Source: Candidatus Poseidoniaceae archaeon (GTDB taxonomy: Archaea; Thermoplasmatota; Poseidoniia; Poseidoniales; Poseidoniaceae). Taken from it: 64,000 nt of DNA. This document shows positions 1 through 22,098 of the stretch, piece after piece. A model generated the notes under the pieces. The model was not told the DNA's origin and did no database searches. It worked only from the letters and a program-made list of their open reading frames with translations. Position numbers and translations under genes: made by a program. Within the stretch, counting starts at the first letter, position 1, and each line of letters starts with the position of its first letter. The stretch lies in assembly GCA_965662895.1 (NCBI GenBank), contig CBFIJH010000012.1:2491-66490 (forward strand). The letters run 5' to 3'.

Positions 1-1
1 T

Positions 2-1552
2 GCTTGGACAGTTGTCGGATGGGTCAGGAACTCCGTCTCCATCCGAATCGAGAAGGTTCGCAGGGTCGAACAACCAAGCGTAGACATCTCTCAATCCACC
101 TGACGATACGGCCACACCCTTGTGCGTAAATGATCCGGAGAACGAACCTGTCGCACCGACAACATCGGTCGTGTTTGTTGCAAGGGCGAAGACATAATCG
201 TATTCAGCACCTCCAAACTTTTCAATCCAATCGACAGAACCGCTTGGCGATAAACCAACCATAAATCCGTCATGGTTCTGATTCAGAAGGGTTTTCGAAC
301 CTGCAGTGAAGGTTGCATTGATGTAACCTCCAAAAATTACAGAGCCTGTCGATGTAACCGTCATTGCTTGCGGTTCATCGGTAATTGAAGAACCGGAAAC
401 GACGGCCCAGGTGTTTGTTTGTGTACTCGAACTTCGCACGACAAAGATGTCATTTCCGCCATAGGTTGCTGTTGCAGTCCAGCCCGTTGCACCGATGGTT
501 CCGCCAAATGTCCCACTAAGGTATGTATCACCATTTGGCCCTACCTCGATTTGCAAGACGAGGGTTGATTGACCAGAAGTACCAATGCCTTCAGTTCCGA
601 GGACAATACCGAATTCATCGAGATCGACAATGACAGCGTCGAGGTTTCCGTTTGCAACATAATTGTACGTGGCCCATTGCGATACACTCGTCGTTGCAGT
701 GGCCAACTTTATCTCGCCGTTTTGTGCTAAAGCCATATCAAATACCGTATCTGCATCAATTCCACCCCCACTTGTAGCCCACAACAGACCTCCAGACTGC
801 CCGTCGTATCTTGCAACGAAGATATCTTGGCTGGTCGCATTGATTGAAAAGCCGCTACCAAAGTCTGTTTCTCCACTGAACATTCCAGCTACGATTACAT
901 CCCCAGAGGGATGCAGTTCTGCGTGCGTGGCCCGACTGAATTCGCCAGTTCCATTGACGAGCGTTGAAAGGTTGTTCGCCCACATCCACCCTTGTCCAAA
1001 ACTGTACATTGCAGTAAAGCCTTCAAAATGACCGCCAGAATTGAGATTTGAAATTTGCAGGTTCTGTCCTTGTTGACCAAAGAGAATCGTTCCGTAATAA
1101 TAGCCGGTTACAACAATCTCGTCGTTGTATCCAACAGCAACATCCGTAAGGTAAGAGATGCCCCCTCCATTGGTACCATGATCAGCGCTGATGAACCCAT
1201 TCCAAGCCCCAGAATCGGTAAGCAGAGCTAGGAAAAATTCACCTCCAAATTGTGCGAGGTTTGCAGGAACGGTGGGATTGAGCGTATATCCTCCATAATT
1301 TAGAGTCGAAGAGAATTCCGAACCAACGACCCATCCTCCGGCAGGAAATGCTTCGATGTGTTCCCCATCCTCATTGTTCGAACCACTTCCAGTTGCAAGC
1401 ATTGTCGCAACGGAACGACCCGATGTTTCGAAAACTAGATCTTCTGCTATTGAATCAAGTTCATCAAAGTTTACGGCCTTGGGAACTGCTACTGAACAGA
1501 CCATTAGGGCAATCAGGAACGTGGCTGAGAACGCTTTCAGACTCGGGCGCAT
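2..1552 (-). CDS. Secreted/surface protein with beta-propeller (SBBP-like) repeats followed by a TSP3-type Ca-binding repeat; 3' end runs off the window
   Basis: Not in the ORF track because there is no stop in the window. Manual translation from ATG 1552 gives the signal peptide MRPSLKAFSATFLIALMVCSVAVP, repeats such as DVIVAGMFSGETDFG...DIFVARYD...LLWA, and DSDGDGVPDPSDNCP at the window edge. Confidence 0.8.
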   Translation of the reverse strand, partial: MRPSLKAFSATFLIALMVCSVAVPKAVNFDELDSIAEDLVFETSGRSVATMLATGSGSNNEDGEHIEAFPAGGWVVGSEFSSTLNYGGYTLNPTVPANLAQFGGEFFLALLTDSGAWNGFISADHGTNGGGISYLTDVAVGYNDEIVVTGYYYGTILFGQQGQNLQISNLNSGGHFEGFTAMYSFGQGWMWANNLSTLVNGTGEFSRATHAELHPSGDVIVAGMFSGETDFGSGFSINATSQDIFVARYDGQSGGLLWATSGGGIDADTVFDMALAQNGEIKLATATTSVSQWATYNYVANGNLDAVIVDLDEFGIVLGTEGIGTSGQSTLVLQIEVGPNGDTYLSGTFGGTIGATGWTATATYGGNDIFVVRSSSTQTNTWAVVSGSSITDEPQAMTVTSTGSVIFGGYINATFTAGSKTLLNQNHDGFMVGLSPSGSVDWIEKFGGAEYDYVFALATNTTDVVGATGSFSGSFTHKGVAVSSGGLRDVYAWLFDPANLLDSDGDGVPDPSDNCPS

Positions 1553-10331: not shown

Positions 10332-10347
10332 GGTATCAACTCCAGGT

Positions 10348-10995: not shown

Positions 10996-11043
10996 CCAAC
11001 TTCACCCCGCAAAGCCCTCAACGTTGTGCTGCGGCGCAGTAGG

Positions 11044-11117
11044 CGGGCCCGACGGGGTTCGAACCCGCGACCATCGGGTTAAAAGCCCGACGCTCTACCT
11101 GACTGAGCTACAGGCCC
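11044..11117 (-). tRNA. tRNA-Lys (anticodon UUU)
   Basis: Reverse complement GGGCCTGTAGCTCAGTCAGGTAGAGCGTCGGGCTTTTAACCCGATGGTCGCGGGTTCGAACCCCGTCGGGCCCG forms a cloverleaf with anticodon loop CT-TTT-AA. Confidence 0.96.
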
Positions 11118-11246
11118 AACGTTGCATCTTGGGCTTTCATTCCGAACTACCCCCCATTCTTATACTTTACCGATTCCAACACTCACATCGTTCGATAGAA
11201 GAAACGCTCATTTAGGTTCGGGTGTCAAGCAATTTTGAGCGTTGCT

Positions 11247-12665
11247 ATGTTCAATTCAGAAGATGCACTCAACGAGATCAAATTTCTTGACAGAAAAGAG
11301 TCGAACATCCACCAATGGAATTCGCTGAAACTAACTGTCCCTCCGACAGTCTATCCTCCAAGAGAAGATACACAACTTCTCTATGATGTTCTCAAATCCT
11401 TGAAACCATTTGGCTCAAACAGACTTTTGGAAATCGGGTCAGGTTCAGGTGCCCTTGCTCTATCCGCTGCGAAGCGTGGGTGGTCGGTTGATGCTTGCGA
11501 CGTGAACCCATATGCTGTTGCCGCGACGCGTTTGAATGCTCGTGAAGCCCAACTCGAAGTTCATGTCATCGAAGGAGGAGTCGGTCCTGAACACGAGAAC
11601 TGGATGAATGACGGATTAAGCTTCGGTGCGTACGACATGGTCATCTGGAACATGCCCTACATTCCTGCAAATGAGATCAAGGAGCACCATTTGGGCCCGA
11701 TGGAGGAAGCTGCGCTCATCGATACTCATCCTGAAGGATTGCTCAGCGTCTTTGCAAAACGTATGGCATCAAACCGTATGTGCAAATTGGACGGAATTGC
11801 GTTGCTCGTCTGCCGGGGACATGTTGGATGGAAACGTAGTGTGGATGTTCTGCGCCAACACGGTCTTGCTGCACGAATTGTTTCGTCCGAAACGTTTGGT
11901 GATCAAGAAACGATTAATGTCATCGCAACATGGATGCCCTTTGTTTCCTCAAAGCATCATATCATGGCTGAGATTGACTCAACAAACAAGGAAATGTTGC
12001 TAGGCTCTTACAACGTGGGTGATTCCCTCATGGCTCGAAGACAGACGGACGGTCGAGGACGTCACGGGAACGATTGGGAAGACCATCCTGGCGCCTTCAA
12101 GTGCTCATGGCTTCTTGACCCAAAGTTTCTGACCGAAATCAACCCGCTACGCCAACTCCAAGTTGCTCAGGAGGTTCACGCAGTTTTCCAACTAAAGGAG
12201 AATCATGCAAACCAAACGATTGTCAAATGGCCGAACGATCTCTTAATCCGTTCACAGCAGGAGGAGAAATGGAGGAAGTACGGAGGCCTTCTGTTCCAAT
12301 CTTATTCCAAAGGAAAGATACAGAAACTGGTTCTTGGTGTTGGAATCAATACCCAGATGGAAACACTCAGCCTTGGCCAAGGGGCGCTTGAAGAAACCGG
12401 CATTCGACACACAAGCACAGAACTTTTCCCGATTCTCAATGCAGTCGTGGCCTCAATCTTTGAACAGAAACACCCATCATTGAGAAAACGTTTCGATGAG
12501 ACCTATACCTCTAAATTCTTACTCAATTCATGCATCTATAGAGGGGAAAGTTACACAGTAATCGATGTTTTACCGAACGCGTTGGTGCTCCAAAACAGGG
12601 TAGGCGTGAATGTGACTGTTGAAGACGATGAACATATTGAATGGGTCAATCTTCATCCGCAATAA
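11247..12665 (+). CDS. Fusion of a HemK/PrmC-like SAM methyltransferase and a biotin-protein ligase (BPL) domain
   Basis: N-half: VYPPREDTQLL, LLEIGSGSG, VIWNMPY. C-half: IDSTN, QTDGRGRHGNDW, KWPNDLL, KYGGLL, LGVGIN. Confidence 0.85.
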   Translation: MFNSEDALNEIKFLDRKESNIHQWNSLKLTVPPTVYPPREDTQLLYDVLKSLKPFGSNRLLEIGSGSGALALSAAKRGWSVDACDVNPYAVAATRLNAREAQLEVHVIEGGVGPEHENWMNDGLSFGAYDMVIWNMPYIPANEIKEHHLGPMEEAALIDTHPEGLLSVFAKRMASNRMCKLDGIALLVCRGHVGWKRSVDVLRQHGLAARIVSSETFGDQETINVIATWMPFVSSKHHIMAEIDSTNKEMLLGSYNVGDSLMARRQTDGRGRHGNDWEDHPGAFKCSWLLDPKFLTEINPLRQLQVAQEVHAVFQLKENHANQTIVKWPNDLLIRSQQEEKWRKYGGLLFQSYSKGKIQKLVLGVGINTQMETLSLGQGALEETGIRHTSTELFPILNAVVASIFEQKHPSLRKRFDETYTSKFLLNSCIYRGESYTVIDVLPNALVLQNRVGVNVTVEDDEHIEWVNLHPQ

Positions 12666-13152
12666 TCGCATCGAGGACACCAGAATCCTTGGGCGATTCA
12701 TCGGCGTTTTTCTTGACAACACCGGCAGCAGTAATGAGGGCACCTAGAATGTAAGGCAGGTAATTGAGAAAGTACGCTCGTTGCAAATCGATGTCAATCT
12801 CTCCACCTGTATCCTCAGAAAGGGTGATCTTCCAGGACAATTGTCCACCTTGCGATTTGTACGTCACCTCTGCAGGGGTCGAATCGTCGGAAAGACGGTT
12901 TTCATCAAGAACCTCGACTCCGTCTTCGAACACTTCAATGCGGACGTCGGATTGATTGTCTGTCGTGACGGCTATTTCAAGAAGGTCGCCTGAAAATGTT
13001 CGAGAGTTTCCCTCCATAGGAGCATCGCCAGCATCAACCTTGGTTGGAAGATCCCACTCCTGGATAAACAACGTTCCAATTAACAGCGAAACTCCGATGA
13101 GTAATAGAACGTCTTCCAACTTCAACGGGGGCGCTGTCCCTCCACCGGCCAT
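12646..13152 (-). CDS. Hypothetical membrane protein (two TM helices flanking a soluble beta-rich domain)
   Basis: Hydrophobic LLLIGVSLLIGTLFI and YLPYILGALITAAGVV. Start taken at ATG 13152. Confidence 0.7.
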   Translation of the reverse strand: MAGGGTAPPLKLEDVLLLIGVSLLIGTLFIQEWDLPTKVDAGDAPMEGNSRTFSGDLLEIAVTTDNQSDVRIEVFEDGVEVLDENRLSDDSTPAEVTYKSQGGQLSWKITLSEDTGGEIDIDLQRAYFLNYLPYILGALITAAGVVKKNADESPKDSGVLDAIIADED

Positions 13153-13187
13153 GGAGCATCCAATTGAGCGAGGGTCAAAAGCGTGTC

Positions 13188-13553
13188 TTACCTTCTCGAA
13201 GGTTTTGGTAGGCACATTCGTTCACGAACGAGTCGTATCTTCCCTGAGGATGAGATTGAGGACAATCCCATGTCGTTCTCGGATTGAAGAATTGAGCGTA
13301 CTTCGTCGTAATCACGCAAAAGAACACATAGGATTGCAACGCCAACATCATCTGAGAGTTGACAGAAATCGCGTGATTTTTGAGCCTCTTGACTACCAGC
13401 GAGGTGGCAATCGTACACCTTTACACCGAACGTGGAAAGGTTGGATGAAGCTATGTAATCAAGCAGTTCTGATCTTGAACCAAGCGTTGAAGGGACAGTA
13501 ACGCCAATCCAGCGGCGTTTGGGCCGTTTGGCTTTGGAAACCTTTCCTCCCAT
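13188..13553 (-). CDS. RNase P protein, Rpp14/Pop5 family
   Basis: N-terminal RPKRRWI and C-terminal SSSGKIRLVRER resemble the Pop5 R-x-K-x-R-Y-I and SGTIK motifs. Confidence 0.7.
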   Translation of the reverse strand: MGGKVSKAKRPKRRWIGVTVPSTLGSRSELLDYIASSNLSTFGVKVYDCHLAGSQEAQKSRDFCQLSDDVGVAILCVLLRDYDEVRSILQSENDMGLSSISSSGKIRLVRERMCLPKPSRR

Positions 13554-13635
13554 GGTTCTCCATCCCACACTACCTCATGTAGGTATGGCATCAAATTTTG
13601 AACAGCCTTTAGAACCCAAGCCTCGACAGGCGGTC

Positions 13636-14928
13636 ATGGAGGAAACCAAGCCGTTGACCAAAATGTCACTGCTGAAGAGTTTGCTTTCACCTTCAACGTT
13701 TCCTCATTTGCTGATGTTGGCTGCAATCTCTGTGACATTTTTTGTTCTCGCAAGATTGGAAGCAGAAGTGTGGTCCGCGTATGGTTTCATTGCCTTCAGT
13801 CTTGCATACTTGCTTCTCGCACCTCTCTCAAAGAACGAACGCATGGGTGACATCCTTCGCTACAAGAACGAATCCAACGCAACGATGAAACAATCCATCC
13901 CCGCTCGATTGAAAGTCCTCCTATTACCACTCATCATTGGGTTTGTGTTGATTCTGTTTATTTTCCTCGTTTTTGGTGAAAATGGAGTTCTGTCTCAAGT
14001 AGGTTCGTTCTTACCGACCCTCCTCGGAAGTCTGTTTGTTGTCTGGGCAATCGCTCAAGGCCGTTTCTTTGGACTCGCTTCGATGAACGCCATCGTCGTG
14101 CCCGAAGAAGGCGAAGGCAATGCAGAAGGGTACTCTCCTTTGCCTTCGCTCATCATGACATCGACACTTGTGATCGTCATGACTTTCGCAGTAACGGAGG
14201 GTCTTCGATTCTTTTTAGGTAACACATCCTTCAACATCTGGCCTTACCTCTTTTCGTTTGCAGTGTACGGAATTTGCATCTATGTCACATGGGGTCAGCG
14301 AAAGCAAGCATCGATGCATTCTGCCACGCATTCCGTGGCAAGAAAGTGGTTTTGGGCAACCCAATTGTTCATCACTTGGCACGTTTTGAGCATATACCGT
14401 AGTATCGATAGTGCATCGACCGACACGCTGATTTTCATCGAAGAATTGCTCCTGATGATCGTGACCGTCTTCCTCGCAATTTGGGCACTTACAAGCAAAG
14501 GAGAGGGGTCGGAGTCGACACTCTTCACCCGAGAGAACGCACTCTTTTGGGGCGTAGCGTTTGGGTATGCGTATGCTGGAAGTGTCGCAATGATCACGTC
14601 CGTCATGGACGATGTTCGAACCGTTCTCATCGGTGGCCACATCCTCGTTGTTGTAACGGTCATCTGGTCGCAGCGAACCATGCTTGAGGATAAGACACAA
14701 CGCATCAACAGCGATCGAGAAATCGTCGAATCCGTCGGGAAATTACCGATTTATGACGAACCCCCATCCGAACAACAAATCGATGCTGACACCATTTCAG
14801 ATTCATCGCCTCCTGAAGAAGCAAAGAGTTCAGAATCGAGCATCGGCGATCCCGTTGATTGGAATCAAACACCAGAAGCGCTTGGTGATGAAACCGAATG
14901 GGACGATGAAATCGAATTGCTTGATTAA
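13636..14928 (+). CDS. Multi-pass membrane protein with an acidic C-terminal tail
   Basis: About 10 hydrophobic segments and the tail EWDDEIELLD. No family recognised. Confidence 0.75.
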   Translation: MEETKPLTKMSLLKSLLSPSTFPHLLMLAAISVTFFVLARLEAEVWSAYGFIAFSLAYLLLAPLSKNERMGDILRYKNESNATMKQSIPARLKVLLLPLIIGFVLILFIFLVFGENGVLSQVGSFLPTLLGSLFVVWAIAQGRFFGLASMNAIVVPEEGEGNAEGYSPLPSLIMTSTLVIVMTFAVTEGLRFFLGNTSFNIWPYLFSFAVYGICIYVTWGQRKQASMHSATHSVARKWFWATQLFITWHVLSIYRSIDSASTDTLIFIEELLLMIVTVFLAIWALTSKGEGSESTLFTRENALFWGVAFGYAYAGSVAMITSVMDDVRTVLIGGHILVVVTVIWSQRTMLEDKTQRINSDREIVESVGKLPIYDEPPSEQQIDADTISDSSPPEEAKSSESSIGDPVDWNQTPEALGDETEWDDEIELLD

Positions 14929-15833
14929 TCCTCATCGATGCCGGACAGAAGCATCACAATTCGAATGGTTCCTTCCAAATCCGGAGAAACACGTGCCCCG
15001 AGAATGACTTGAGCATCGGCATCGACTGCGGATGTCAACGCTGTTGCAATTTCATCAACTTGGCCGATGGTCAGCCCCATTCCGCCCTCGATTTGAAGCA
15101 GGCATCCCTTCGCTCCTGCGACGTTCATGGGTGCCAAAGGTGCTTTTATTGTAGCTTCGTACAATTCTTGCAATTGGTCATGCCGTCCTGTACCAACCAA
15201 CATTGTCGATGCGCCTTGATGTTGAAGAATCGCTCGCAAATCCATGAGATCAAGATTGATGAGTCCCATCGAAAGAAGGGTGCGAACCAATCCATCGATG
15301 AGGTCCTCAACCCATTCCGAGCCCATATTCCAATCCTTTCCACGATCTCGGGCTTGTCGAGCAAGTCGTTCAAGAGAAAGTTGTACGCAAACGTCGGAGT
15401 GGTGATCAAGTCGTTGGATTTCGGCCTCAGCGATTCGCTTCCTCGCAGGTTGATGCCCAAACGGTAGGGCTGCTATTGAGAGGACTGTTGCCCCGTGAAG
15501 TTTGGCTTGTCGAGCAAATTCATGCGATGCACCTGTTCCTGTACCGCCACCAAGGCCTGCGACAATAATAACCAATTCAGCCTGTTCAAGAAATGGTCGA
15601 GTTCGAGTGCTCAGACTCCGCATTCTTTGTTCGGCTAGGGGGGGTAGAGCAGCACACCCCAACGCATCCAAAGTGTGACCAAGTCGAATGATGTTCGCCC
15701 CGTCGACCTCTGGAAATCGGTCATCTGCATCGAGCATTAGCAACGACGCACCACCGCCGCGTTGGTGAGCCCTGGCTGCCCAAGTACAACCAAGCCCACC
15801 GATTCCGGTGACGAGGATTTGGGTTGACTCCAT
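14925..15833 (-). CDS. Divergent FtsZ/tubulin-family GTPase
   Basis: GIGGLG, signature AGLGGGTGTG, ALPF, LINLDLMDL (T7), VILGA, IRIVMLLSGI. Confidence 0.85.
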   Translation of the reverse strand: MESTQILVTGIGGLGCTWAARAHQRGGGASLLMLDADDRFPEVDGANIIRLGHTLDALGCAALPPLAEQRMRSLSTRTRPFLEQAELVIIVAGLGGGTGTGASHEFARQAKLHGATVLSIAALPFGHQPARKRIAEAEIQRLDHHSDVCVQLSLERLARQARDRGKDWNMGSEWVEDLIDGLVRTLLSMGLINLDLMDLRAILQHQGASTMLVGTGRHDQLQELYEATIKAPLAPMNVAGAKGCLLQIEGGMGLTIGQVDEIATALTSAVDADAQVILGARVSPDLEGTIRIVMLLSGIDED

Positions 15834-15868
15834 GAAAGGCCCTTTGTCAGAACGCCCTTGAACTTACC

Positions 15869-16171
15869 TTACTTTTCTACAAAGCGCATGTAACGCCGGC
15901 GGGCGTCTCGGGCCCAAGCGTTGTCGGGTTCGAGATACAAAACCTTGTCATAATACGAAACGGCTGTTTCAAATTCAGAGAGATGTCGGCCGTAAAGATG
16001 TCCAAGATTCGACAACACGGGTATGCATTCCTCGTCTTCTTCGAGCATACTCAGCAGCAGGCGTTCAGCTGCACCGAGATCATTTCTGAGCATCAAATCC
16101 TCGGCTTCATCCAAGCGTTCGAGTTGCGATGTTGAGAGGTCGTAGATGTTGTCGAACGGTGTTTCCGCCAT
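15869..16171 (-). CDS. Small TPR-repeat protein
   Basis: VLSNLGHLY...AVSYYDKVLYLEPDNAWA matches the TPR consensus. Confidence 0.75.
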   Translation of the reverse strand: MAETPFDNIYDLSTSQLERLDEAEDLMLRNDLGAAERLLLSMLEEDEECIPVLSNLGHLYGRHLSEFETAVSYYDKVLYLEPDNAWARDARRRYMRFVEK

Positions 16172-16314
16172 GGAGTTGCTACACAGGGAAATCAAATGAA
16201 TTCTTGCCTTGTTAGTTTTTGGGCGGAAAACGGTACACTGCAAAGCATTATTCTTGCGTTTGACTGACAATGTTTAAGGGGTCCTTCTAAGTCGAAAGCC
16301 CATAGGGTGTAGCC

Positions 16315-17127
16315 ATGCTGACAACCTCGTCCACAAAACGCCGCACCATTGTCGTTGCAGTGTTGCTTCTTTTGCTGTTGCCCGGCCTCGCGACATCGCT
16401 CCCTACTGGAATCGGTGGCCAACAGAACGACATCGATGATGTTGCCAAAGAAGGATGTCTTTGCCATAATGCTGCGCCCTCCAACAACGTCCAGGTCATT
16501 TTGGACAGCGTTCCGTACGCCTGGACACCAGGTGAAACCTACGATTTGCAACTGCACATTATCGGTGGACCCGCTGCTGGCGGCCAATACTCTGCTGGAT
16601 TTTCAATGCGCGTCTCAGGCGGTGAACTCGGCGGAATCGGGGTCGACAATTGGGAAGGAGATCTCGAATCCCTCACGCACACCTCCGCATCCGCCGCCGA
16701 ATCCGACCGAATGTGGGATATCACATGGACTGCACCATCCGAAGGAGAGGGAACCGTCACGTTCTGGATCACAGGGAACAGCGTCAACGGAGACGGTGGC
16801 CTCGGCAACGTCATCGAAGACATGTGGAATCAACTCACCTTCGCTCTCGTTGAAGGCGATGAAGACAGTCTTGCAAGAGGGACACGAACCGTCTTTGCGG
16901 GCGACGGCGATGTCGCCCCCCCAGAACCTGAATCACATGGTGCTGATTTGCACCACATGGGTGCAAAGTTGCGTGCCCACTGGCTCGGCCTGTTAGGCTT
17001 CGGAGCCGTCATCATGTGCGTTGTTTTTGCAGGATTGATGCTCCGCTATGGATTCTCAACATCTTACGAAGGACGGAGCAATCAATTGCGACTCCGCTAC
17101 AAACTCATGCGAAGAGGTGATCAATGA
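16315..17127 (+). CDS. Exported Reeler/choice-of-anchor-V-like beta-sandwich protein with a CxCH motif and a C-terminal TM anchor; first gene of the Rieske/cyt b operon
   Basis: Signal peptide, GCLCH, WTPGETYDL, WDITWTAP...VTFWITGNSVNGDG, TM helix WLGLLGFGAVIMCVVFAGLML. Confidence 0.75.
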   Translation: MLTTSSTKRRTIVVAVLLLLLLPGLATSLPTGIGGQQNDIDDVAKEGCLCHNAAPSNNVQVILDSVPYAWTPGETYDLQLHIIGGPAAGGQYSAGFSMRVSGGELGGIGVDNWEGDLESLTHTSASAAESDRMWDITWTAPSEGEGTVTFWITGNSVNGDGGLGNVIEDMWNQLTFALVEGDEDSLARGTRTVFAGDGDVAPPEPESHGADLHHMGAKLRAHWLGLLGFGAVIMCVVFAGLMLRYGFSTSYEGRSNQLRLRYKLMRRGDQ

Positions 17128-17573
17128 TGTACGATGACACAATCAACAATTTGCTCAAGGGCGTTGCAGATGGTTCGATCTCCGTCAAAGACGCACGCAA
17201 TGCGCTCGAAGGCGTTGAGTTAACCGAAGCACAGATGGACGAAGCAATCAATCACGGCGTTCACGATGTTGCCGAATCTGGAACCATTGTAAGCGCAAGC
17301 CTCGCTCCTTCCGGAGGCTCCTATCTCACGATGTTCTTCTTTGCTTGGGGCATCTTCTGGGCATGCTATTGGGCTTTTTCTCTCATCTATGGGCTCGCCA
17401 AGAGCTGGGACCAGCAGCAACTGGCCTTCCACCTTGCTATGACGCTAACAACGCTCATTCTCATGGGTGTCATCTACCTCAAATACATCCTACCAGACAC
17501 CATCATCGTCAAACATTCTCAAAACAAATACGTCCCTGAGCATGCCAAGGATTGGAAGGAGTACAAGTGGTGA
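17124..17573 (+). CDS. Two-TM membrane protein, putative accessory subunit of the Rieske/cyt b complex
   Basis: ATGA-coupled to the upstream gene. Two hydrophobic helices. Confidence 0.7.
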   Translation: MMYDDTINNLLKGVADGSISVKDARNALEGVELTEAQMDEAINHGVHDVAESGTIVSASLAPSGGSYLTMFFFAWGIFWACYWAFSLIYGLAKSWDQQQLAFHLAMTLTTLILMGVIYLKYILPDTIIVKHSQNKYVPEHAKDWKEYKW

Positions 17574-17578
17574 TACCA

Positions 17579-18421
17579 ATGGCGAAAGATTACAACCTCT
17601 TTGTTCCCGAAGTAAAAGACAGCAAGGCGAATGCTGGTGAAACTGTCATCAATCGACGACAATTCCTACGCTATGGTTTCAATACCACTGCAGGTGTTCT
17701 GGCTGCTTCACTCGGGGTGCTTGGCTTTGCAGCAATTCTTCTCCCTCCAGGAGGAGGTTCAGCAGGAGACCTGTCTGTGAAATTCTGGGCCAAAGGGCGA
17801 GAAGACACAGCGTGGTACGGTGCAAAGCACCTCCAAACGATGACAAAAGCAGACTTCGTTGCTGAGGCAGCGAATTCCAACACAGGAACAGCAGGTGCCT
17901 CAGGCGTATGGAACGGTGTTCCAGTTGTTGTCACCTATGTTGAAGATTCAAAATGGCAAGGCTCCCCTAGCGACAACAACAAGGCGCGATTCCAGATGAT
18001 GGAGGGTTACGACGAATCTGGAAAATACATTGGTCACTTTGAAGACATGGTTGCAATGGATGAGCGAATTTACCCCTCTGATGATTTGATCATGGTTTTC
18101 GGGCGATGCACGCACCTTTGCTGCATTCCTGGGTGGCAACTCGTATCCAATTCCTACACCGACGATTCGTGGACTCCTGGAGGAACCGACGATGGAGGAA
18201 CCAAATTGTTCTGCATCTGCCACTCTTCTCGTTTCGATACGACTGCTTTGGAGATGAACACCAATCGTAACCGTTCAAACGGTGCGACGTTTACCTATGC
18301 CGGTGTCCGCAAAGCCGGAGGACCTGCACCTGTAGGACTCCCGCTCATCCCTATCGTACTGAACAATGATGTGGTTGAAGGCATAACCGACTACGTCGAT
18401 TGGTTGACGTATTGTGACTGA
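17579..18421 (+). CDS. Rieske [2Fe-2S] protein with a Tat-type anchor (PetC/QcrA-like)
   Basis: NRRQFLRYG plus a TM helix; box 1 CTHLCC; box 2 CICHSSRFD; GGPAPVGL. Confidence 0.92.
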   Translation: MAKDYNLFVPEVKDSKANAGETVINRRQFLRYGFNTTAGVLAASLGVLGFAAILLPPGGGSAGDLSVKFWAKGREDTAWYGAKHLQTMTKADFVAEAANSNTGTAGASGVWNGVPVVVTYVEDSKWQGSPSDNNKARFQMMEGYDESGKYIGHFEDMVAMDERIYPSDDLIMVFGRCTHLCCIPGWQLVSNSYTDDSWTPGGTDDGGTKLFCICHSSRFDTTALEMNTNRNRSNGATFTYAGVRKAGGPAPVGLPLIPIVLNNDVVEGITDYVDWLTYCD

Positions 18422-18430
18422 GGTGATGAA

Positions 18431-19297
18431 ATGACGACAATGTTCTGGATTCTTTGGTTTTTCATTGCCTTCATTATCGTTCTCGTGGCTTTCACACTCC
18501 GTAAGGAGACTGAGGAAATGCCTCGCCGTGAAATTCTTCGTGCTGTTGAATCAACGGGTGGGATGGGCATCTCGGAACGTGCCTTCTTGTGGGTGTTTTC
18601 GTGGATGGATACGCGATTCCGTATCCAAGACTATTGGAACATGTCCAAAGGAGCATACTACAACATGCACCGTCAGATGCCGCTAACGCACGCTGAAAAG
18701 TACAAACTGCGCATCATTTGGTATTGGTATCCATTGTACTGCTTGGGCGGCATCTCGTTCCTAAGTTTCATCATTCTTGTCTTGACGGGCACAATTCTTG
18801 GCATCTATTACGTTCCAGGGGGCGAAGGTGATCCTTCTCCTGCGTATGCCTCAATGGAATTTATCATGTTGGAATTACCGTTTGGTTACATCATTCGTGC
18901 TGTGCATCATTGGGGAACTCACTTCATGGTTGCATCTGTGTTTTTGCACATGTGCCGGGTATATTTCACGGGCGCTTATCGAAACCCTCGAGAACTGAAC
19001 TGGCTTATTGGTGTCGCATTGATGGCATTAACCATCGTCTTCGGTTACTCCGGCTATCTTCTGCCTTGGGACAGTCTGGCTTACGGTGCAGCGGTTATTG
19101 GAATCAACCTCGCCAATTCCTCACCACTGATTGGAAAGTACATCGCTACGCTCTTGTTCGGTGGTTCATCTCTCACACCTCGAACGGTTACACGGATGTA
19201 CTTCATCCACGTCTTTATCTTACCAGTGATTGTGACAACATTGATCATCATTCACTTGTTTATTGTTTGGGTACAAGGAATCGCGGAGCCGCATTGA
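18431..19297 (+). CDS. petB: Cytochrome b6-type subunit (split cytochrome b, N-terminal part)
   Basis: YCLGGISF; heme ligands in RAVHHW...FLHMCRVY and FIHVF...IIHL; PRELNW, GYLLPWD; C-terminal QGIAEPH. Confidence 0.92.
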   Translation: MTTMFWILWFFIAFIIVLVAFTLRKETEEMPRREILRAVESTGGMGISERAFLWVFSWMDTRFRIQDYWNMSKGAYYNMHRQMPLTHAEKYKLRIIWYWYPLYCLGGISFLSFIILVLTGTILGIYYVPGGEGDPSPAYASMEFIMLELPFGYIIRAVHHWGTHFMVASVFLHMCRVYFTGAYRNPRELNWLIGVALMALTIVFGYSGYLLPWDSLAYGAAVIGINLANSSPLIGKYIATLLFGGSSLTPRTVTRMYFIHVFILPVIVTTLIIIHLFIVWVQGIAEPH

Positions 19298-19311: not shown

Positions 19312-22098
19312 ATGGGATTAATGGAGAATTTAGGACGAGTTGCAACCTCGTACATGGATGAAAAAGCCAAACTGCAAGAAGCAGGAGAAAAGCGCAAGCG
19401 CACTCGGATGGGTCACGGTTTCTGGCCGCACGAGGTGCTACGTGACACCATTCTCTTTGCTTTCATGGCTGCAGTTCTTCTGTTCTACGCGTGGCTCATT
19501 CCACCGCCATTGCACGGTGCAGCTGACCCGTATGCGCAAGCAGGGTTTGTTTTCCCGGACTGGTACGTATTGTTCTCGTACGGATATTTGCGTTGGGGAG
19601 AATATCTTCCTCAATTTACCGTTCCGACCGGATTTATTGGCGATATTGTTGGGCAACCCGTCTTTGCTTGGAACGCTGCATGGTGGGGCGCTGCGCTCAC
19701 AGGTATCCCTGTCGGCATCCTCGCTCTTCCACCTTTCCTCGGCGGACGTGAGAAGCGACCCGTCGAAGACCCGTGGTTTGCTGCAGCAGGTGCAGTTTAC
19801 CTTGCACACGTTTGGTTCATCTCGGTCTTTTCGATCAACATCTTCCTTGAGTTGTACGGGAAAAATCGTTCCGATTATTGCAAACTTGATTCGCACGGCG
19901 ATCTGTTGTGTGGGACTAGGGCCCCATGGATTGCGGAAATTTTCAATGCAGTGCCGTGGATTTTAACCGGCTTGTTGCTGTGGATTGTCATCTATTTCAT
20001 CGGCAGAAATGTGCTGGTTAAAGCATGGGGTGCAGGATTTACTCCGGAACATGGTAAGCGCTTGATTATTGGAGCACTCGTTGTATCGGCTGGTGCCTCT
20101 GTTGCAACCTTTGACACCTACGACAACGGTTTCTGGGAAGCAGGTGGTTTGTTAACCATCAAAGGTCTAACGCACGACTATTACCCTGAACTTGAGGCCA
20201 TGCGTACACAACCTTCGGATGTCCACGTTCATGAAACGAACGAATTCACGGATGACCGTGGATACACCGATGGGGTCGTACCGGCAGCAGCGTGGCTGGA
20301 TTGGCAAATCTTCCAACCTGCCCGAGAGACAATCATTGATTTTAGTGATGCCAACAACCATCAGATTCCTGAGATTGGGGAAAATGCAGCTGGAGAAACC
20401 GTGACCTTTACTGGAGGGGAAGGCTACACCAAAAGTGGAACATTCACGGTCACAGATGACTACACAAGCGAAGCCCTACCAACCGATGTGACCTGCGAAT
20501 ACCGAGCAAGCGAGCGGAAGATCGACGGCGTCAACACTGCAACCATGCTTACAAGCACCATGTCTGTAACGGATAGCAATGGAAAGGTCCTCACATCCTT
20601 TACTGATTGTGCAGGTTCTGAAATCAACCTCGAACCCGGAACATACGGTTACGAATTTACGCTCACAGTATCAGGTGCTCTTGCGCTCAACGATTCCATT
20701 ACAACGGAAACAACCTTTGCCGTACAGACGTACCAACCACTCCTTCTTTGGGACGATAATGCTGGTGCCCATGCTGGCAAAATCGTGAACCTGAGCGACA
20801 CTGCGATGATTGCTGCCTCTTCCGGAACCTACAGCGATGTCACAAACCCATCCTATCACGTCAACCCGAAGGCACTCGATGCCAAGTTGACCTATGCCAT
20901 GTTCATCCCATGTCTCACCTTTGGTGCAGTTGTCATCGTCCTGTTGCGATCGATGGCACGTGGCTACGAATTTGAGATGAACAAGTGCTACGGCTGTGAC
21001 CTCTGTGACGATGCATGTCCTGTGCGATTGTTCAATGGAGGAGACAAACTCAACATCATTTACAATTCGTGGAACAACGAGGACGATGGCGTTCCGCTGT
21101 ATTCGTGTCTGACCTGTACAGCTTGTACCAACGCTTGTCCGCAATTGGTGAACTACGACTCCTACGTCGACATACGTCGCAGCTTGATCGTCGGTGGTCC
21201 AGCAGCAGAAATCCCTCACACAGTACTTCAGGCCGTTCTTGCTGCTGAAGCTGAAGAAGCGTCCAATGACGACTTCATCCCTGTCGAGGAATACCCAATT
21301 TCCTCAAATGTCGGCTACTACCCTGGTTGTGTTGACTACCTTGACCAAGAGATGGTCTTCTCACACGTCAACGAGGGTGAGATGAACCTCGGTGATTCAA
21401 CCACGGCGGCCTTTACGTTGTTCGAAGAAATGGGACACGACGTTTCATACCTCGGCCGTGACTTCCTCAAGTGCTGTGGTCATGACCAGAAGTGGCAAGG
21501 TCTTACTGAAGTCTTTGACAAGCTCAAGGCATACAACCAGAAAAAGATCGAAGCATCCGGAATCGACACACTCGTTTCTTCATGTGCCGAGTGTTTCCGA
21601 ACCTTTGCCCGTGATTACGAATTGGACGGCGTCAAAGTCATGCACACAACAGAATATCTCATCGAGAACGGTTTCGATATGCAACTTTCAACCGATGCAA
21701 CCACAGTGACCTATCACGACCCGTGTCGACTTGGACGACAGATGGGTATCTATGATGAGCCTCGTGAACTGATCAACGCCGTTGAAGGAGTCGATCTTGT
21801 TGAGATGGAACACCATGGTGAGGATGCCATGTGCTGTGGTGTCTCGAGCATGATGTCCTGCAATGAGAACGCCCGAGCACTCCGTGTCGCTCGAATGGAA
21901 GAAATCAAGTCGACAGGAGCCGATACCATGTTGACTTCATGTCCAAAGTGTGTTTCTCACTTTGAGTGTCTCAAGTTCGAAGGTGATGAGCGCTACGAAG
22001 ATATCGAAATCCTCGACGTTGTTTCCTTCCTTGCACGTGAAGTCAACGCAAAGAAAGGCGAGATCTCCGCCTCTTCTCAAACCGAAGTCGAAGCTTGA
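19312..22098 (+). CDS. Cytochrome b6/f subunit IV (PetD-like) fused to an extracellular domain and an HdrD/GlpC-like 2x[4Fe-4S] + 2xCCG module
   Basis: FWPHEVLRD, PPPLHGAADP, PDWY. Then CYGCDLCDDACP, CLTCTACTNACP, YYPGC..KCCG..SCAEC and TYHDPC..MCCG..SCPKC. Confidence 0.9.
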   Translation: MGLMENLGRVATSYMDEKAKLQEAGEKRKRTRMGHGFWPHEVLRDTILFAFMAAVLLFYAWLIPPPLHGAADPYAQAGFVFPDWYVLFSYGYLRWGEYLPQFTVPTGFIGDIVGQPVFAWNAAWWGAALTGIPVGILALPPFLGGREKRPVEDPWFAAAGAVYLAHVWFISVFSINIFLELYGKNRSDYCKLDSHGDLLCGTRAPWIAEIFNAVPWILTGLLLWIVIYFIGRNVLVKAWGAGFTPEHGKRLIIGALVVSAGASVATFDTYDNGFWEAGGLLTIKGLTHDYYPELEAMRTQPSDVHVHETNEFTDDRGYTDGVVPAAAWLDWQIFQPARETIIDFSDANNHQIPEIGENAAGETVTFTGGEGYTKSGTFTVTDDYTSEALPTDVTCEYRASERKIDGVNTATMLTSTMSVTDSNGKVLTSFTDCAGSEINLEPGTYGYEFTLTVSGALALNDSITTETTFAVQTYQPLLLWDDNAGAHAGKIVNLSDTAMIAASSGTYSDVTNPSYHVNPKALDAKLTYAMFIPCLTFGAVVIVLLRSMARGYEFEMNKCYGCDLCDDACPVRLFNGGDKLNIIYNSWNNEDDGVPLYSCLTCTACTNACPQLVNYDSYVDIRRSLIVGGPAAEIPHTVLQAVLAAEAEEASNDDFIPVEEYPISSNVGYYPGCVDYLDQEMVFSHVNEGEMNLGDSTTAAFTLFEEMGHDVSYLGRDFLKCCGHDQKWQGLTEVFDKLKAYNQKKIEASGIDTLVSSCAECFRTFARDYELDGVKVMHTTEYLIENGFDMQLSTDATTVTYHDPCRLGRQMGIYDEPRELINAVEGVDLVEMEHHGEDAMCCGVSSMMSCNENARALRVARMEEIKSTGADTMLTSCPKCVSHFECLKFEGDERYEDIEILDVVSFLAREVNAKKGEISASSQTEVEA

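What the first reader, a model, noticed from the sequence alone, without database searches (positions are those of the whole stretch)
16315..17127. Candidate cytochrome f analogue heading the Rieske/b6 operon
Seen: the operon encodes no canonical CxxCH cytochrome c1/f. Its first gene is an exported beta-sandwich (Reeler-like) protein with a C-terminal TM anchor. After predicted cleavage (ATS|LP) it begins Leu1-Pro2 and has C-L-C-H at mature positions 20-23. Known: cytochrome f is beta-rich and C-terminally anchored, begins Tyr1-Pro2, has CxxCH at 21-25, and uses the N-terminal amine as heme ligand. Inference: this is the high-potential acceptor, with a contracted CxCH heme motif.
Basis: inference. 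Interest (0 to 1): 0.75.

Follow-up and report, generated by a model that had tools for sequence, protein, structure and literature searches.

The report
Cytochrome f-like subunit with CxCH motif
The first gene of this marine archaeon's Rieske/cytochrome b6 operon encodes a membrane-anchored beta-sandwich protein that looks most like cytochrome f and probably carries heme on an unprecedented C-x-C-H motif, which would fill the long-missing "cytochrome c" slot in one of the ocean's most abundant archaea.

Summary
The ORF (16315-17127, +, 270 aa) is real. It heads a five-gene operon of ORF1, a small membrane protein, Rieske, cytochrome b6 and subunit IV fused to an HdrD-like module. The host is a Poseidoniales (Marine Group II) archaeon.

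ORF1 belongs to the uncharacterised NCBIfam "choice-of-anchor V" family. G-C-x-C-H is invariant in its orthologues and nearly universal across the family. Rare relatives have Cx3-10CH, a single Cys, or canonical CxxCH, always keeping "CH". That is how heme c sites vary.

The best predicted structure matches cytochrome f first (Z 10.1-10.9). Reeler domains follow (Z 8.0-8.4), then generic sandwiches (Z up to 8.2).

The genome has the streamlined archaeal maturation set CcmA/B, C, E and F, but no credible exported CxxCH protein. Its six exported CxCH proteins are all family members. One is fused to heme-copper oxidase subunit I, a fusion found in 57 of 61 sampled Poseidoniales genomes.

In a phylum sample, 60 of 61 genomes with the domain also have CcmC/F. 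One genome (G226) does not.

Heme binding itself remains untested. I found no paper on it. Confidence about 0.6; interest high.

The parts
16315..17127 (+). ORF1, 270 aa: choice-of-anchor V / Reeler-like beta-sandwich protein with a C-terminal membrane anchor. It is the candidate cytochrome f-like electron-acceptor subunit.
   Evidence: ORF listed. NCBIfam NF041895 E 3.3e-26, 92.1 bits against a cut-off of 42. Best fold match is cytochrome f, Z 10.1-10.9.
16315..16398 (+). Predicted signal peptide (residues 1-28, ...LLPGLATS|LP).
   Evidence: Read from the sequence. The -3/-1 pattern A/V-x-S is kept in the orthologues. No predictor was run.
16456..16467 (+). C-L-C-H (residues 48-51), preceded by invariant Gly47: the proposed heme c attachment site, with His51 as the proximal ligand.
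   Evidence: Invariant in 18 of 18 orthologues. Of 150 listed family representatives, 123 have [GA]CxCH, 8 have Cx3-10CH, 2 have a single CH, and 17 are fragments that lack the N-terminus.
16483..16899 (+). Beta-sandwich core (about residues 57-195).
   Evidence: AF2 model m8fe80b18475a, block pLDDT mostly 74-95 over the core, dropping to 65-70 in two loop blocks. Fold matches.
16675..16683 (+). T-H-T (residues 121-123). His122 is the only other widely conserved His and is a candidate distal heme ligand.
   Evidence: His in 111 of 124 aligned family sequences, Gln in 6, Tyr in 2. At least 90% conserved in A2. Gln in 2 of 18 operon orthologues.
16978..17049 (+). C-terminal transmembrane helix (about residues 222-245), preceded by the conserved segment D-L-H-H-M-G-A-K-L-R-A-H.
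   Evidence: Hydrophobic stretch in the sequence. AF2 helix 213-266. H222 and M215 are invariant in orthologues.
17050..17124 (+). Cytoplasmic tail, nearly invariant (…FSTSY.GR.N.LRLRYK…RRGDQ).
   Evidence: invariant columns 247-270.
17124..17573 (+). ORF2, 149 aa, a small membrane protein. Its start overlaps the ORF1 stop. It is a conserved operon member of unknown role.
   Evidence: Conserved next to ORF1 in 8 of 9 fetched loci. Only a weak DUF7318 hit, E 0.0067.
17552..18421 (+). Rieske iron-sulfur protein (C-I-C-H-S-S-R-F box).
   Evidence: TIGR01416 E 3.8e-10. Sequence.
18431..19297 (+). Cytochrome b6-type cytochrome b. Cys104 in 'YCLGG' aligns to Cys35 of solved cytochrome b6.
   Evidence: PF00033 E 2e-42. 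NF002990 cytochrome b6 E 5.3e-59. The closest solved chains are cytochrome b6, E 1.5e-43, and the printed alignment is.
19312..22098 (+). 928-aa fusion: a subunit IV-like N-terminus with a P-D-W-Y motif, an extracytoplasmic insert, a TM helix, then an HdrD-like 4Fe-4S + 2x CCG module.
   Evidence: PF02754 CCG E 3.2e-23 and Fer4 families. Conserved at 59-62% identity in other Poseidoniales.

Best explanation
ORF1 is the extracytoplasmic electron-acceptor subunit of a b6f-like Rieske/cytochrome b6 complex in Marine Group II archaea. It does the job that cytochrome f or c1 does elsewhere.

Proposed steps (all inferred unless marked):
- It is exported by a signal peptide and held in the membrane by one C-terminal helix.
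- Its beta-sandwich of the Reeler / choice-of-anchor V family resembles the large domain of cytochrome f (shown on a predicted model).
- The streamlined archaeal Ccm machinery (CcmA/B, C, E with CxxxY, F) attaches heme covalently to Cys48 and Cys50 of the contracted C-x-C-H motif. His51 is the proximal iron ligand.
- The distal ligand is His122 of the T-H-T motif or, as in cytochrome f, the new N-terminal amine.
- The reduced Rieske cluster passes one electron to this heme.
- The electron then goes to the CuA heme-copper oxidase, whose subunit I carries its own N-terminal copy of the same domain. Transfer may be direct, or via a small anchored paralogue or a plastocyanin-like cupredoxin.
For: **Shown by tools**
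1. ORF1 is the first gene of the operon, with a 4-base overlap to the next gene. The order ORF1-ORF2-Rieske-b6-subunit IV/HdrD is kept in 8 of 9 loci fetched from other Poseidoniales. The ninth locus was a different paralogue.
2. A CxCH-bearing family member also heads the Rieske/b6 operon in G256, G126 and G116, which lie in other families of the phylum. That is 3 of the 3 loci where the upstream DNA exists; the other 2 of 5 are cut by contig ends.
3. The motif is invariant in 18 of 18 orthologues. Of 150 listed representatives (from 1361 hits), 123 have [GA]CxCH, 8 have Cx3-10CH, 2 have a single CH, and the remaining 17 are fragments without the N-terminus. Weak relatives in 6 genomes (G136, G214, G128, G153, G186, G115) carry canonical CxxCH at the same place after the signal peptide. 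So 'CH' is fixed while the upstream Cys moves, as in CXnCH heme c sites (passage in PMC5541062).
4. Fold: in an all-against-all search of 48,161 PDB representatives the two top hits are cytochrome f (Z 10.8 and 10.4, rmsd 3.1, 146 and 145 residues aligned); the next hit is Z 8.2. In the second look the top 15 entries are all cytochrome f, Z 10.1-10.9, model 32..181-185 (to 254 in the one entry that also aligns the membrane helix) against chain 1..246-254 (to 292 in that entry). Reeler domains score Z 8.0-8.4.
5. The genome has CcmF, CcmC, CcmA fused to a membrane part, and CcmE ending ...C-P-S-K-Y. CcmABCEF suffices in archaea (passages of PMC9084895).
6. No credible exported CxxCH protein is present. 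Of 1555 non-shadowed ORFs, 12 have CxxCH, and the 3 with an N-terminal hydrophobic stretch are a doubtful ORF, an Fe-S protein and a CxxC (thioredoxin-like, read by eye; no family match) membrane protein. CxCH occurs in 8 ORFs, and the 6 with an N-terminal hydrophobic stretch are exactly the six family members.
7. In 101 sampled Poseidoniales genomes the domain is found in 101, CcmE in 87, PF13442 in 0 and PF00034 in 1.
8. In 201 Thermoplasmatota genomes, 61 have the domain over its cut-off, and 60 of these have PF01578. Of the other 140 genomes, 47 have PF01578 (my comparison of the tables).
9. The domain recurs in respiratory contexts.
   - It is fused to COX1 (PF00115 E 2.6e-143). One match spans both parts in 57 of 61 genomes, and the fusion is also present in G126 and G151.
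   - The neighbouring COX2 has a CuA motif.
   - In G116 the gene order is Fe-S protein, NrfD, family member, two unknown genes, then ccmA-ccmB-ccmC.
10. The cytochrome b is of the b6 type, with the Cys35 equivalent.

**From the literature**
- MGII was noted to have cytochrome b and Rieske but to lack a canonical bc1 complex (passage of PMC6336850).
Against: - No tool shows heme. I know of no natural heme c site with one residue between the cysteines (recalled; the paper read says n is usually two), and the geometry is untested.
- One genome, G226 (a single 3.6-Mb contig, 78% complete by markers), has two family members just over the cut-off (44.8 and 43.2 bits) with C-V-N-S-C-H and C-I-C-H. 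It has no PF01578 or PF03100 match even at E up to 1.
- HMMER finds no link to cytochrome f. The family profile against all PDB sequences at E up to 10 gives only Reeler domains, a Flo11 chain and short local hits on class I cytochromes c. Pfam at E up to 10 gives Reeler in 20 of 51 members and no Apocytochr_F.
- Foldseek ranks Reeler above cytochrome f. The first, low-confidence model (motif region pLDDT under 50) returned no cytochrome f.
- The model is a prediction, and cytochrome f structures were available to train the predictor.
- His122 is Gln in 2 of 18 operon orthologues and is not His in 13 of 124 family members.
- Pro2 is not conserved, and the distance from the predicted N-terminus to the motif varies among orthologues.
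- The genome also has two plastocyanin-like cupredoxins that could act as carriers.
- Kin are not independent, so the co-occurrence counts overstate the support.
Confidence: 0.6

Rival explanations
1. The domain is a redox or metal-handling module that uses a non-heme metal, most likely copper, bound by Cys48, Cys50 and His51. It would be a new kind of copper electron carrier. In the oxidase fusion it could instead be a built-in copper chaperone, comparable to the Cys-x-Cys site of the Ig-like Cox11 (recalled).
For: - Cys-x-Cys plus His is a plausible soft-metal site.
- The domain is fused to the copper-containing oxidase subunit I.
- Archaea often use copper proteins in place of cytochrome c (recalled), and this genome has cupredoxins.
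- A copper-binding YcnI sandwich appears among the fold hits at Z 6.6-6.7, within the generic range.
- G226 has family members without Ccm.
Against: - It leaves the conserved Ccm system of Poseidoniales without a substrate.
- It does not explain why His always directly follows the second Cys while the first Cys sits 1 to about 10 residues away or is missing, nor the canonical CxxCH in relatives.
- A copper chaperone has no obvious role at the head of a Rieske/b6 operon or after NrfCD.
- The best fold match is a heme protein.
Confidence: 0.15
2. ORF1 is a structural, assembly or surface-interaction subunit with a Reeler-like adhesion fold and no redox cofactor. The cysteines would form a disulfide or a structural zinc site. 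Electrons would leave the Rieske centre directly to a cupredoxin or to the oxidase.
For: - The sequence-level relatives are Reeler domains. Those I know of are extracellular binding modules without a cofactor (recalled).
- Several paralogues are large surface proteins of 768 and 839 aa.
- The family is catalogued only as a domain found with various cell-surface anchors. PGF-CTERM occurs in 3 and LPXTG in 2 of 51 members.
- Cupredoxins are present.
Against: - The Reeler alignment starts after the motif (profile position 53), so the CxCH segment is an addition specific to this family.
- One relative has a single Cys, which rules out a disulfide there.
- The domain recurs in three kinds of quinol-oxidising or oxygen-reducing gene clusters and tracks Ccm in 60 of 61 genomes.
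- Ccm would remain an orphan system.
Confidence: 0.1
3. The domain binds heme, but not as a classical two-thioether heme c. It could use a single thioether, as in the single-Cys motif of euglenozoan cytochromes c (recalled). It could instead bind heme non-covalently with Cys or His ligation, like the exported heme b subunit CbsA of the Sulfolobus SoxLN complex (recalled).
For: - The tight CxC spacing may not reach both vinyl groups.
- One relative has only the second Cys (P0147).
- The operon layout of an exported sandwich protein with a C-terminal anchor, a small hydrophobic protein, Rieske and cytochrome b recalls cbsAB-soxLN (recalled).
Against: - The first Cys is kept in 131 of the 133 listed representatives that include the N-terminus.
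- A full Ccm system is retained.
- No DOMON or CbsA-type family match was found.
Confidence: 0.05

Closest known systems
Cytochrome f (PetA) of cyanobacterial and chloroplast b6f complexes
   Same: - Exported, with a beta-sandwich head and one C-terminal membrane helix with a short tail.
- Cys...Cys-His lies about 20 residues from the mature N-terminus.
- Encoded with Rieske, cytochrome b6 (Cys35 equivalent kept) and subunit IV.
- It is the best structural match to the model: Z 10.1-10.9, rmsd 3.0-3.6, 141-148 residues aligned, starting at cytochrome f residue 1.
   Different: - No detectable sequence similarity; identity in the structural alignment is 12-16%.
- C-x-C-H instead of C-x-x-C-H.
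- No small domain (about 146 of 249 residues align).
- Pro2 is not conserved.
- The host is an archaeon, and maturation would be by system I rather than system II.
- Subunit IV is fused to an HdrD-like module.
NCBIfam NF041895, choice-of-anchor V domain (uncharacterised), and Pfam Reeler domain (F-spondin N-terminal domain, 2zou/3coo)
   Same: - ORF1 scores 92.1 bits against a cut-off of 42 for NF041895.
- 20 of 51 family members hit Pfam Reeler, best E 3.1e-7.
- Foldseek's best hits are Reeler domains; VIA gives Z 8.0-8.4.
   Different: - The Reeler match covers only the sandwich after the motif. The solved Reeler domains are eukaryotic extracellular modules, and I know of no cofactor in them (recalled).
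- No function is on record for NF041895, and no paper was found that names it.
Cytochrome c domain fused to caa3-type heme-copper oxidases (recalled)
   Same: An electron-entry domain is fused to a CuA-type oxidase on the outer face. Here the domain is fused to the N-terminus of subunit I.
   Different: - Different fold (beta-sandwich rather than the helical class I fold).
- Different motif.
- Fused to subunit I rather than subunit II.
CbsA/CbsB with SoxL/SoxN of Sulfolobus (recalled)
   Same: An archaeal Rieske/cytochrome b complex in which an exported, C-terminally anchored beta-rich hemoprotein and a small hydrophobic protein stand in for cytochrome c1.
   Different: - CbsA binds heme b non-covalently and belongs to a different family.
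- No sequence or family match was found here.

Membership tests
Cytochrome f (PetA) | Sequence membership (Pfam Apocytochr_F families) | tested here: not met
   No Pfam family for ORF1 at E up to 0.01. No Apocytochr_F among the 25 families shown (of 34 matched) for the 51 members scanned at E up to 10. No cytochrome f chain in the profile search of PDB sequences at E up to 10.
Cytochrome f (PetA) | Large-domain beta-sandwich fold with an N-terminal heme-binding segment | tested here: met
   On a predicted model only. The top 15 entries are all cytochrome f, Z 10.1-10.9, model 32..181-185 (to 254 in one entry) against chain 1..246-254 (to 292 in that entry). They are the top 2 of 48,161 representatives.
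Cytochrome f (PetA) | C-x-x-C-H heme c motif near residue 21-25 | tested here: not met
   The motif is C-L-C-H at mature positions 20-23, with one residue between the cysteines.
Cytochrome f (PetA) | N-terminal alpha-amine as sixth heme ligand (Tyr1-Pro2) | not testable with these tools
   Pro2 is not conserved. A conserved x-x-G-[G/I] motif sits right at the predicted cleavage site across the family, which fits a positioned N-terminus but does not show ligation.
Cytochrome f (PetA) | Small domain inserted in the large domain | tested here: not met
   The head is about 170 residues, and 141-148 residues align to about 250 residues of cytochrome f. No extra domain appears in the model.
Cytochrome f (PetA) | Single C-terminal membrane anchor, and genes for Rieske, b6 and subunit IV alongside | tested here: met
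   Helix 213-266. Operon.
Choice-of-anchor V domain (NF041895) | HMM score over the curated cut-off | tested here: met
   92.1 bits against a cut-off of 42, E 3.3e-26, residues 19-173.
Reeler domain (PF02014) | HMM match and fold | tested here: inconclusive
   ORF1 itself has no Pfam hit. 20 of 51 relatives hit, best E 3.1e-7. Fold match Z 8.0-8.4 and Foldseek E 6e-5.
c-type cytochromes (covalent heme) | CXnCH motif on an exported protein | tested here: inconclusive
   The protein looks exported and 'CH' is invariant, but n = 1. Relatives have n = 2, 3, 4 and more.
c-type cytochromes (covalent heme) | A maturation system in the same genome | tested here: met
   CcmF TIGR00353 E 2.7e-39, CcmC TIGR01191 E 8.5e-20, CcmA E 8.5e-22, CcmE PF03100 E 5.3e-7. 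CcmE is found in 87 of 101 genomes of the order.
c-type cytochromes (covalent heme) | Heme covalently bound through thioether bonds | not testable with these tools
   Needs heme stain, pyridine hemochrome and mass spectrometry.

The most novel reading that the evidence does not exclude
The choice-of-anchor V proteins are a large, overlooked class of beta-sandwich c-type cytochromes with the first natural C-x-C-H heme site. I saw them mainly in archaea (1361 hits at E up to 0.001 among 1.84 billion representatives; bacterial-type LPXTG anchors occur in 2 of 51 members). On this reading:
- They replace cytochrome c throughout the respiratory chain of Marine Group II archaea: in the b6f-like complex, in the oxidase fusion and in anchored carriers.
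- They are the long-sought relatives of cytochrome f, which has had no known kin.
- Cytochrome f would then be a member of this superfamily recruited to the cyanobacterial b6f complex, and eukaryotic Reeler domains would be cofactor-less descendants of the same fold.
Probability: 0.3. Interest if true: 0.95.

Novelty: new variant of a known kind. Interest (0 to 1): 0.86.

Why it matters
- **A gap in a major organism.** Marine Group II archaea are among the most abundant planktonic archaea (as the papers read say), and none is in culture. Their genomes were noted to have cytochrome b and a Rieske protein but no canonical bc1 complex (PMC6336850). This finding names the missing acceptor subunit and gives the lineage's otherwise orphan cytochrome c maturation system a substrate.
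- **A new heme c motif.** If heme binding is confirmed, it widens the rule for recognising c-type cytochromes from CXnCH with n of 2 or more to n = 1. Motif-based surveys of electron-transfer proteins would have missed these proteins entirely.
- **Possible relatives of cytochrome f.** The fold of cytochrome f has stood alone since its structure was solved (recalled). This makes the question of where the b6f complex got its cytochrome directly testable.
- **A function for an unnamed family.** It gives a testable function to a catalogued but uncharacterised domain family.

Tried and rejected
- **Complex prediction.** I ran cytochrome b6 + subunit IV part (1-275) + 3 hemes + ORF1 (29-270). The result was no verdict: score 0.00 in both runs and the controls were not run. 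This is no evidence either way.
- **RNA evidence.** No RNA holder was listed. Four runs of one study hold the DNA, and read laying was not used.
- **The search for related loci.** I fetched regions by genome handle instead.
- **Names for distant hits.** The listing of cluster members on 10 distant hits gave no organism names. The ESM Atlas gave only 'hypothetical protein' clusters, mostly archaeal, one with Reeler in 11% of members.
- **First AF2 model.** Built from orthologues only, it had pLDDT under 50 over the motif, and its Foldseek list held no cytochrome f.
- **Thioredoxin/CcdA reading.** I read the 495-aa C4 protein (C-S-N-C-H) as a thioredoxin-CcdA fusion by eye. Pfam and NCBIfam give no match at E up to 0.001, so I do not rely on it.
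- **The 1606-aa surface protein** with one C-R-N-C-H at residue 540 was considered as a Ccm substrate. I set it aside as a single motif deep in a giant non-cytochrome protein; its conservation was not tested.
- **Weak choice-of-anchor V-like ORFs in f19 genomes** (764-783 aa) were checked as possible oxidase fusions. Two partial ORFs, from G128 and G214, were scanned and neither has a COX1 match.
- **Literature searches that found nothing relevant:**
  - 'choice-of-anchor V' (0 papers)
  - CXCH + heme + cytochrome (2 papers; the one I opened uses CxCH for the Rieske motif, the other was not opened)
  - 'reeler domain' + heme
  - 'Marine Group II' + 'cytochrome c maturation' (0 papers)
  - 'cytochrome f' + reeler (2 unrelated papers)
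  - 'origin of cytochrome f' (0 papers)
- **Profile-profile comparison with cytochrome f.** I could not obtain cytochrome f sequences from any tool, so this was not run.
Full report
**1. The observation**

The ORF at 16315-17127 (+) exists and encodes 270 residues.
- It has a basic then hydrophobic N-terminus ending ...LATS|LP, and C-L-C-H at residues 48-51.
- It is predicted to have a beta-rich body, one hydrophobic helix near the C-terminus, and a basic tail.
- Its stop overlaps the start of the next gene (ATGA).

The genes that follow are:
- a 149-aa membrane protein;
- a Rieske protein;
- a cytochrome b of the b6 type (PF00033 E 2e-42; NF002990 'cytochrome b6' E 5.3e-59);
- a 928-aa protein with a subunit IV-like N-terminus and an HdrD-like Fe-S/CCG C-terminus.

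No ORF of the operon holds CxxCH. Names attached to close homologues place the organism in Poseidoniales, i.e. Marine Group II. The cleavage site is read by eye; I had no signal-peptide predictor.

**2. Family and motif**

Pfam finds nothing in ORF1. NCBIfam places it in the uncharacterised 'choice-of-anchor V' domain family (92.1 bits, cut-off 42).

In 18 aligned orthologues, G47-C48-L49-C50-H51 is invariant. So are the membrane helix and the tail. Pro2 is not conserved: most orthologues start Y-H-G-G or L-H-G-G.

A profile search of 1.84 billion representatives gave 1361 hits at E up to 0.001. Of the 150 listed:

| Motif class | Count |
|---|---|
| [GA]-C-x-C-H | 123 |
| Cys-(3 to 10 residues)-Cys-His | 8 |
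| single Cys-His (one looks frameshifted) | 2 |
| fragments beginning after the motif | 17 |

Weakly matching relatives in six other Thermoplasmatota genomes have canonical C-x-x-C-H at the same place after the signal peptide. The fixed part is therefore Cys-His, and the first Cys moves. That is the pattern of CXnCH heme c sites (passage in PMC5541062).

Other family-wide conserved positions include T121-H122-T123. His122 is kept in 111 of 124 sequences. Several Asn, Trp and Asp residues are also conserved. A conserved x-x-G-[G/I] motif sits directly at the predicted cleavage site.

**3. Fold**

A model built from orthologues alone was poor over the motif (pLDDT under 50). It matched only Reeler domains and generic sandwiches.

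A model built from 51 diverse family members reached mean pLDDT 76.8, with 83-86 over residues 41-60.

Results with the better model:
- Foldseek still ranks F-spondin Reeler domains first (E 6e-5), and cytochrome f now appears from rank 6 (E 3e-4).
- The exhaustive aligner over 48,161 PDB representatives puts two cytochrome f chains first: Z 10.8 and 10.4, rmsd 3.1, 146 and 145 aligned. The next hit is Z 8.2.
- In the second look the top 15 entries are all cytochrome f from cyanobacteria, algae and plants: Z 10.1-10.9, 141-148 aligned, model 32..181-185 against chain residue 1..246-254. One whole-complex entry (1q90) also aligns the membrane helix: 188 residues, rmsd 17.2, chain to 292. Reeler domains follow at Z 8.0-8.4 with 113-117 aligned, starting at model residue 36-40.

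The extra match to cytochrome f is thus the N-terminal segment that holds the motif.

At the sequence level there is no link to cytochrome f. The family profile finds Reeler domains (E 0.0026) and a short local similarity to the G-C-x-x-C-H region of class I cytochromes c. The latter is not significant for single domains (E 0.49 and 1.8). Pfam gives Reeler in 20 of 51 members.

**4. Maturation system without a canonical substrate**

The genome (1.86 Mb, 92% complete) encodes the following:
- CcmF, cut by a contig end;
- CcmC;
- a CcmA fused to a membrane part;
- a CcmE ending C-P-S-K-Y.

Work in Methanosarcina showed that CcmABCEF suffices in archaea (passages of PMC9084895).

Among 1555 ORFs not shadowed by longer ones:
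- 12 have CxxCH. These are zinc-ribbon, Fe-S and CxxC-type proteins.
- The 3 of these with an N-terminal hydrophobic stretch are a doubtful ORF, an HdrD-like Fe-S protein and a CxxC (thioredoxin-like, read by eye; no family match) membrane protein.
- CxCH occurs in 8 ORFs. The 6 with an N-terminal hydrophobic stretch are exactly the six family members over the cut-off.
- A seventh, weaker paralogue has C-G-G-A-C-H.

In a sample of 101 Poseidoniales genomes:

| Feature | Genomes with a match |
|---|---|
| choice-of-anchor V domain (2-10 copies) | 101 |
| CcmE | 87 (21 of 21 genera) |
| PF13442 (class I cytochrome c) | 0 |
| PF00034 (class I cytochrome c) | 1 |

In 201 Thermoplasmatota genomes, 61 have the domain over the cut-off, and by comparing the two tables 60 of these have CcmC/F. 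Of the other 140, 47 do.

The exception is G226, a single 3.6-Mb contig. Its two members score just over the cut-off and carry C-V-N-S-C-H and C-I-C-H. No CcmC/F or CcmE match appears there even at E up to 1. Related genomes are not independent, so these counts overstate the case.

**5. Genomic contexts**

*Rieske/b6 operon.* The five-gene order is kept in 8 of 9 fetched Poseidoniales loci, with ORF1 about 50% identical. The ninth locus was another paralogue. Outside the order, a CxCH member heads the Rieske/b6 operon in G256, G126 and G116. In the other two genomes checked the contig ends before the spot.

*Oxidase fusion.*
- In G000 a 799-aa protein is domain + helix + COX1 (PF00115 E 2.6e-143). 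It follows a COX2 with a CuA motif.
- One match spans both parts in 57 of 61 Poseidoniales genomes, six of them with one in-frame TGA.
- The fusion also occurs in G126 and G151. G126 has a second oxidase locus with COX2-COX1 and then the domain.

*NrfCD-like cluster.* In G116 the gene order is a Tat-signal Fe-S protein, NrfD (E 1.3e-33), a 354-aa member with G-C-T-C-H, two unknown genes, then ccmA-ccmB-ccmC.

In all three settings the domain stands where a c-type cytochrome usually stands.

**6. The rest of the complex**

- The cytochrome b is closest to solved cytochrome b6 (E 1.5e-43, against 2.6e-29 at best for bc1 cytochromes b).
- Its 'LYCLGGI' aligns to 'FYCLGGI' of b6 at positions 33-39. 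That places Cys104 on Cys35, the residue known to bind heme cn (recalled).
- The Rieske box reads C-I-C-H-S-S-R-F. By the S-F rule quoted in PMC4122944 this is a medium-to-high potential type.
- The genome also has two plastocyanin-like cupredoxins. They could be the mobile carrier, as plastocyanin is for cytochrome f.

**7. Reading**

The best-supported explanation is that ORF1 is the acceptor subunit of a b6f-like complex. It would carry heme c on a contracted C-x-C-H site attached by the archaeal Ccm system.

- *Shown:* operon position and conservation, motif conservation and its mode of variation, fold resemblance on a predicted model, presence of Ccm, absence of canonical substrates, and recurrence in respiratory gene clusters.
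- *Inferred:* heme attachment, the ligands, the direction of electron flow, and membership of the complex.

Rivals are a non-heme metal site, a cofactor-less structural subunit, and non-classical heme binding. Each leaves the orphan Ccm system or the Cys-His adjacency unexplained, but none is excluded. G226 argues that at least some weak members can do without Ccm.

**8. Comparison and novelty**

ORF1 works like cytochrome f, but it fails three tested membership features: the sequence family, CxxCH, and the small domain. I therefore file it as a new variant, not as PetA. It is a bona fide member of NF041895, for which no function is on record.

I found no paper on the family, on a C-x-C-H heme site, on Ccm in Marine Group II, or on a link between cytochrome f and Reeler domains. 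These searches cover open-access papers and bioRxiv only. One paper notes that MGII have cytochrome b and Rieske but lack a canonical bc1 (PMC6336850, passage seen).

**9. Verdict**

Confidence that this is a heme c-bearing acceptor subunit is about 0.6. Confidence that it is a redox subunit of some kind is about 0.8. Interest is high, because the claim is unexpected, affects a globally abundant lineage, touches the origin of cytochrome f, and can be settled by one expression experiment.

Noticed in passing
window 19312-22098 (+): The subunit IV-like protein (P-D-W-Y motif) is fused to an extracytoplasmic insert of about 250 aa, a further TM helix and a cytoplasmic HdrD-like module (two 4Fe-4S motifs and two CCG domains). 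The fusion is conserved at 59-62% identity across Poseidoniales. It is split into two genes in G256 and lacks the HdrD part in G116. A Rieske/b6 complex wired to a cytoplasmic CCG module is unusual.
   Followed up: partly
window 18431-19297 (+), residue 104: The cytochrome b6 keeps the Cys that aligns to Cys35 of solved b6 ('YCLGG'). That residue binds heme cn covalently in b6f complexes (recalled). This would be a second unusual covalent heme in the same complex.
   Followed up: partly
G000 C20:272-2671 (-) = L012:275-2671: The heme-copper oxidase subunit I carries an N-terminal choice-of-anchor V domain (G-C-S-C-H) and an extra TM helix. It follows a COX2 with a CuA motif.
   Followed up: yes
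Matches in G056, G054, G052, G038, G058, G010: In six Poseidoniales genomes the domain-COX1 match contains one in-frame TGA. This could be a gene boundary, a recoding event or an assembly error.
   Followed up: no
L024 (G116:C3) 7785-16722: The gene order is a Tat-signal 4Fe-4S protein, NrfD, a choice-of-anchor V protein (G-C-T-C-H), two unknown surface proteins, then ccmA-ccmB-ccmC. It looks like a quinol-oxidising module whose usual cytochrome c partner is replaced by the domain.
   Followed up: partly
G000 C13:38416-38667 (-) and C2:177426-177686 (+): Two plastocyanin/halocyanin-like cupredoxin domains (PF00127 E 9.2e-14 and 3.1e-11). They are possible mobile carriers between the b6f-like complex and the oxidase.
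   Followed up: no
G000 C2:202571-205090, C17:21696-24002, C2:205087-206043: Large surface proteins (839, 768 and 318 aa) begin with the same domain. Two have CxCH and one has C-G-G-A-C-H. The domain is followed by long repeat regions, acidic D-x-D-type repeats in the 768-aa protein. Their role is unknown.
   Followed up: no
window 16951-16983, ORF1 residues 213-223: A segment just outside the membrane helix, H-H-M-G-A-K-L-R-A-H, is conserved in operon-type orthologues only (M215 and H222 invariant). The model is poor here. It could be a second metal or heme contact, or a docking site.
   Followed up: no
window 14925-15833 (-): A 302-aa FtsZ/tubulin-family protein (FtsZ_C E 2.1e-18) lies upstream on the opposite strand. 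It appears unrelated to the operon.
   Followed up: no
G000 C1:63786-64172 and C1:71624-72589: CcmE and a 321-aa choice-of-anchor V paralogue lie about 7.5 kb apart, with a TatC-like gene directly next to the paralogue. Similar spacing of 8-16 kb is seen in G006, G022, G024, G002 and G009, judging from the coordinate lists.
   Followed up: no
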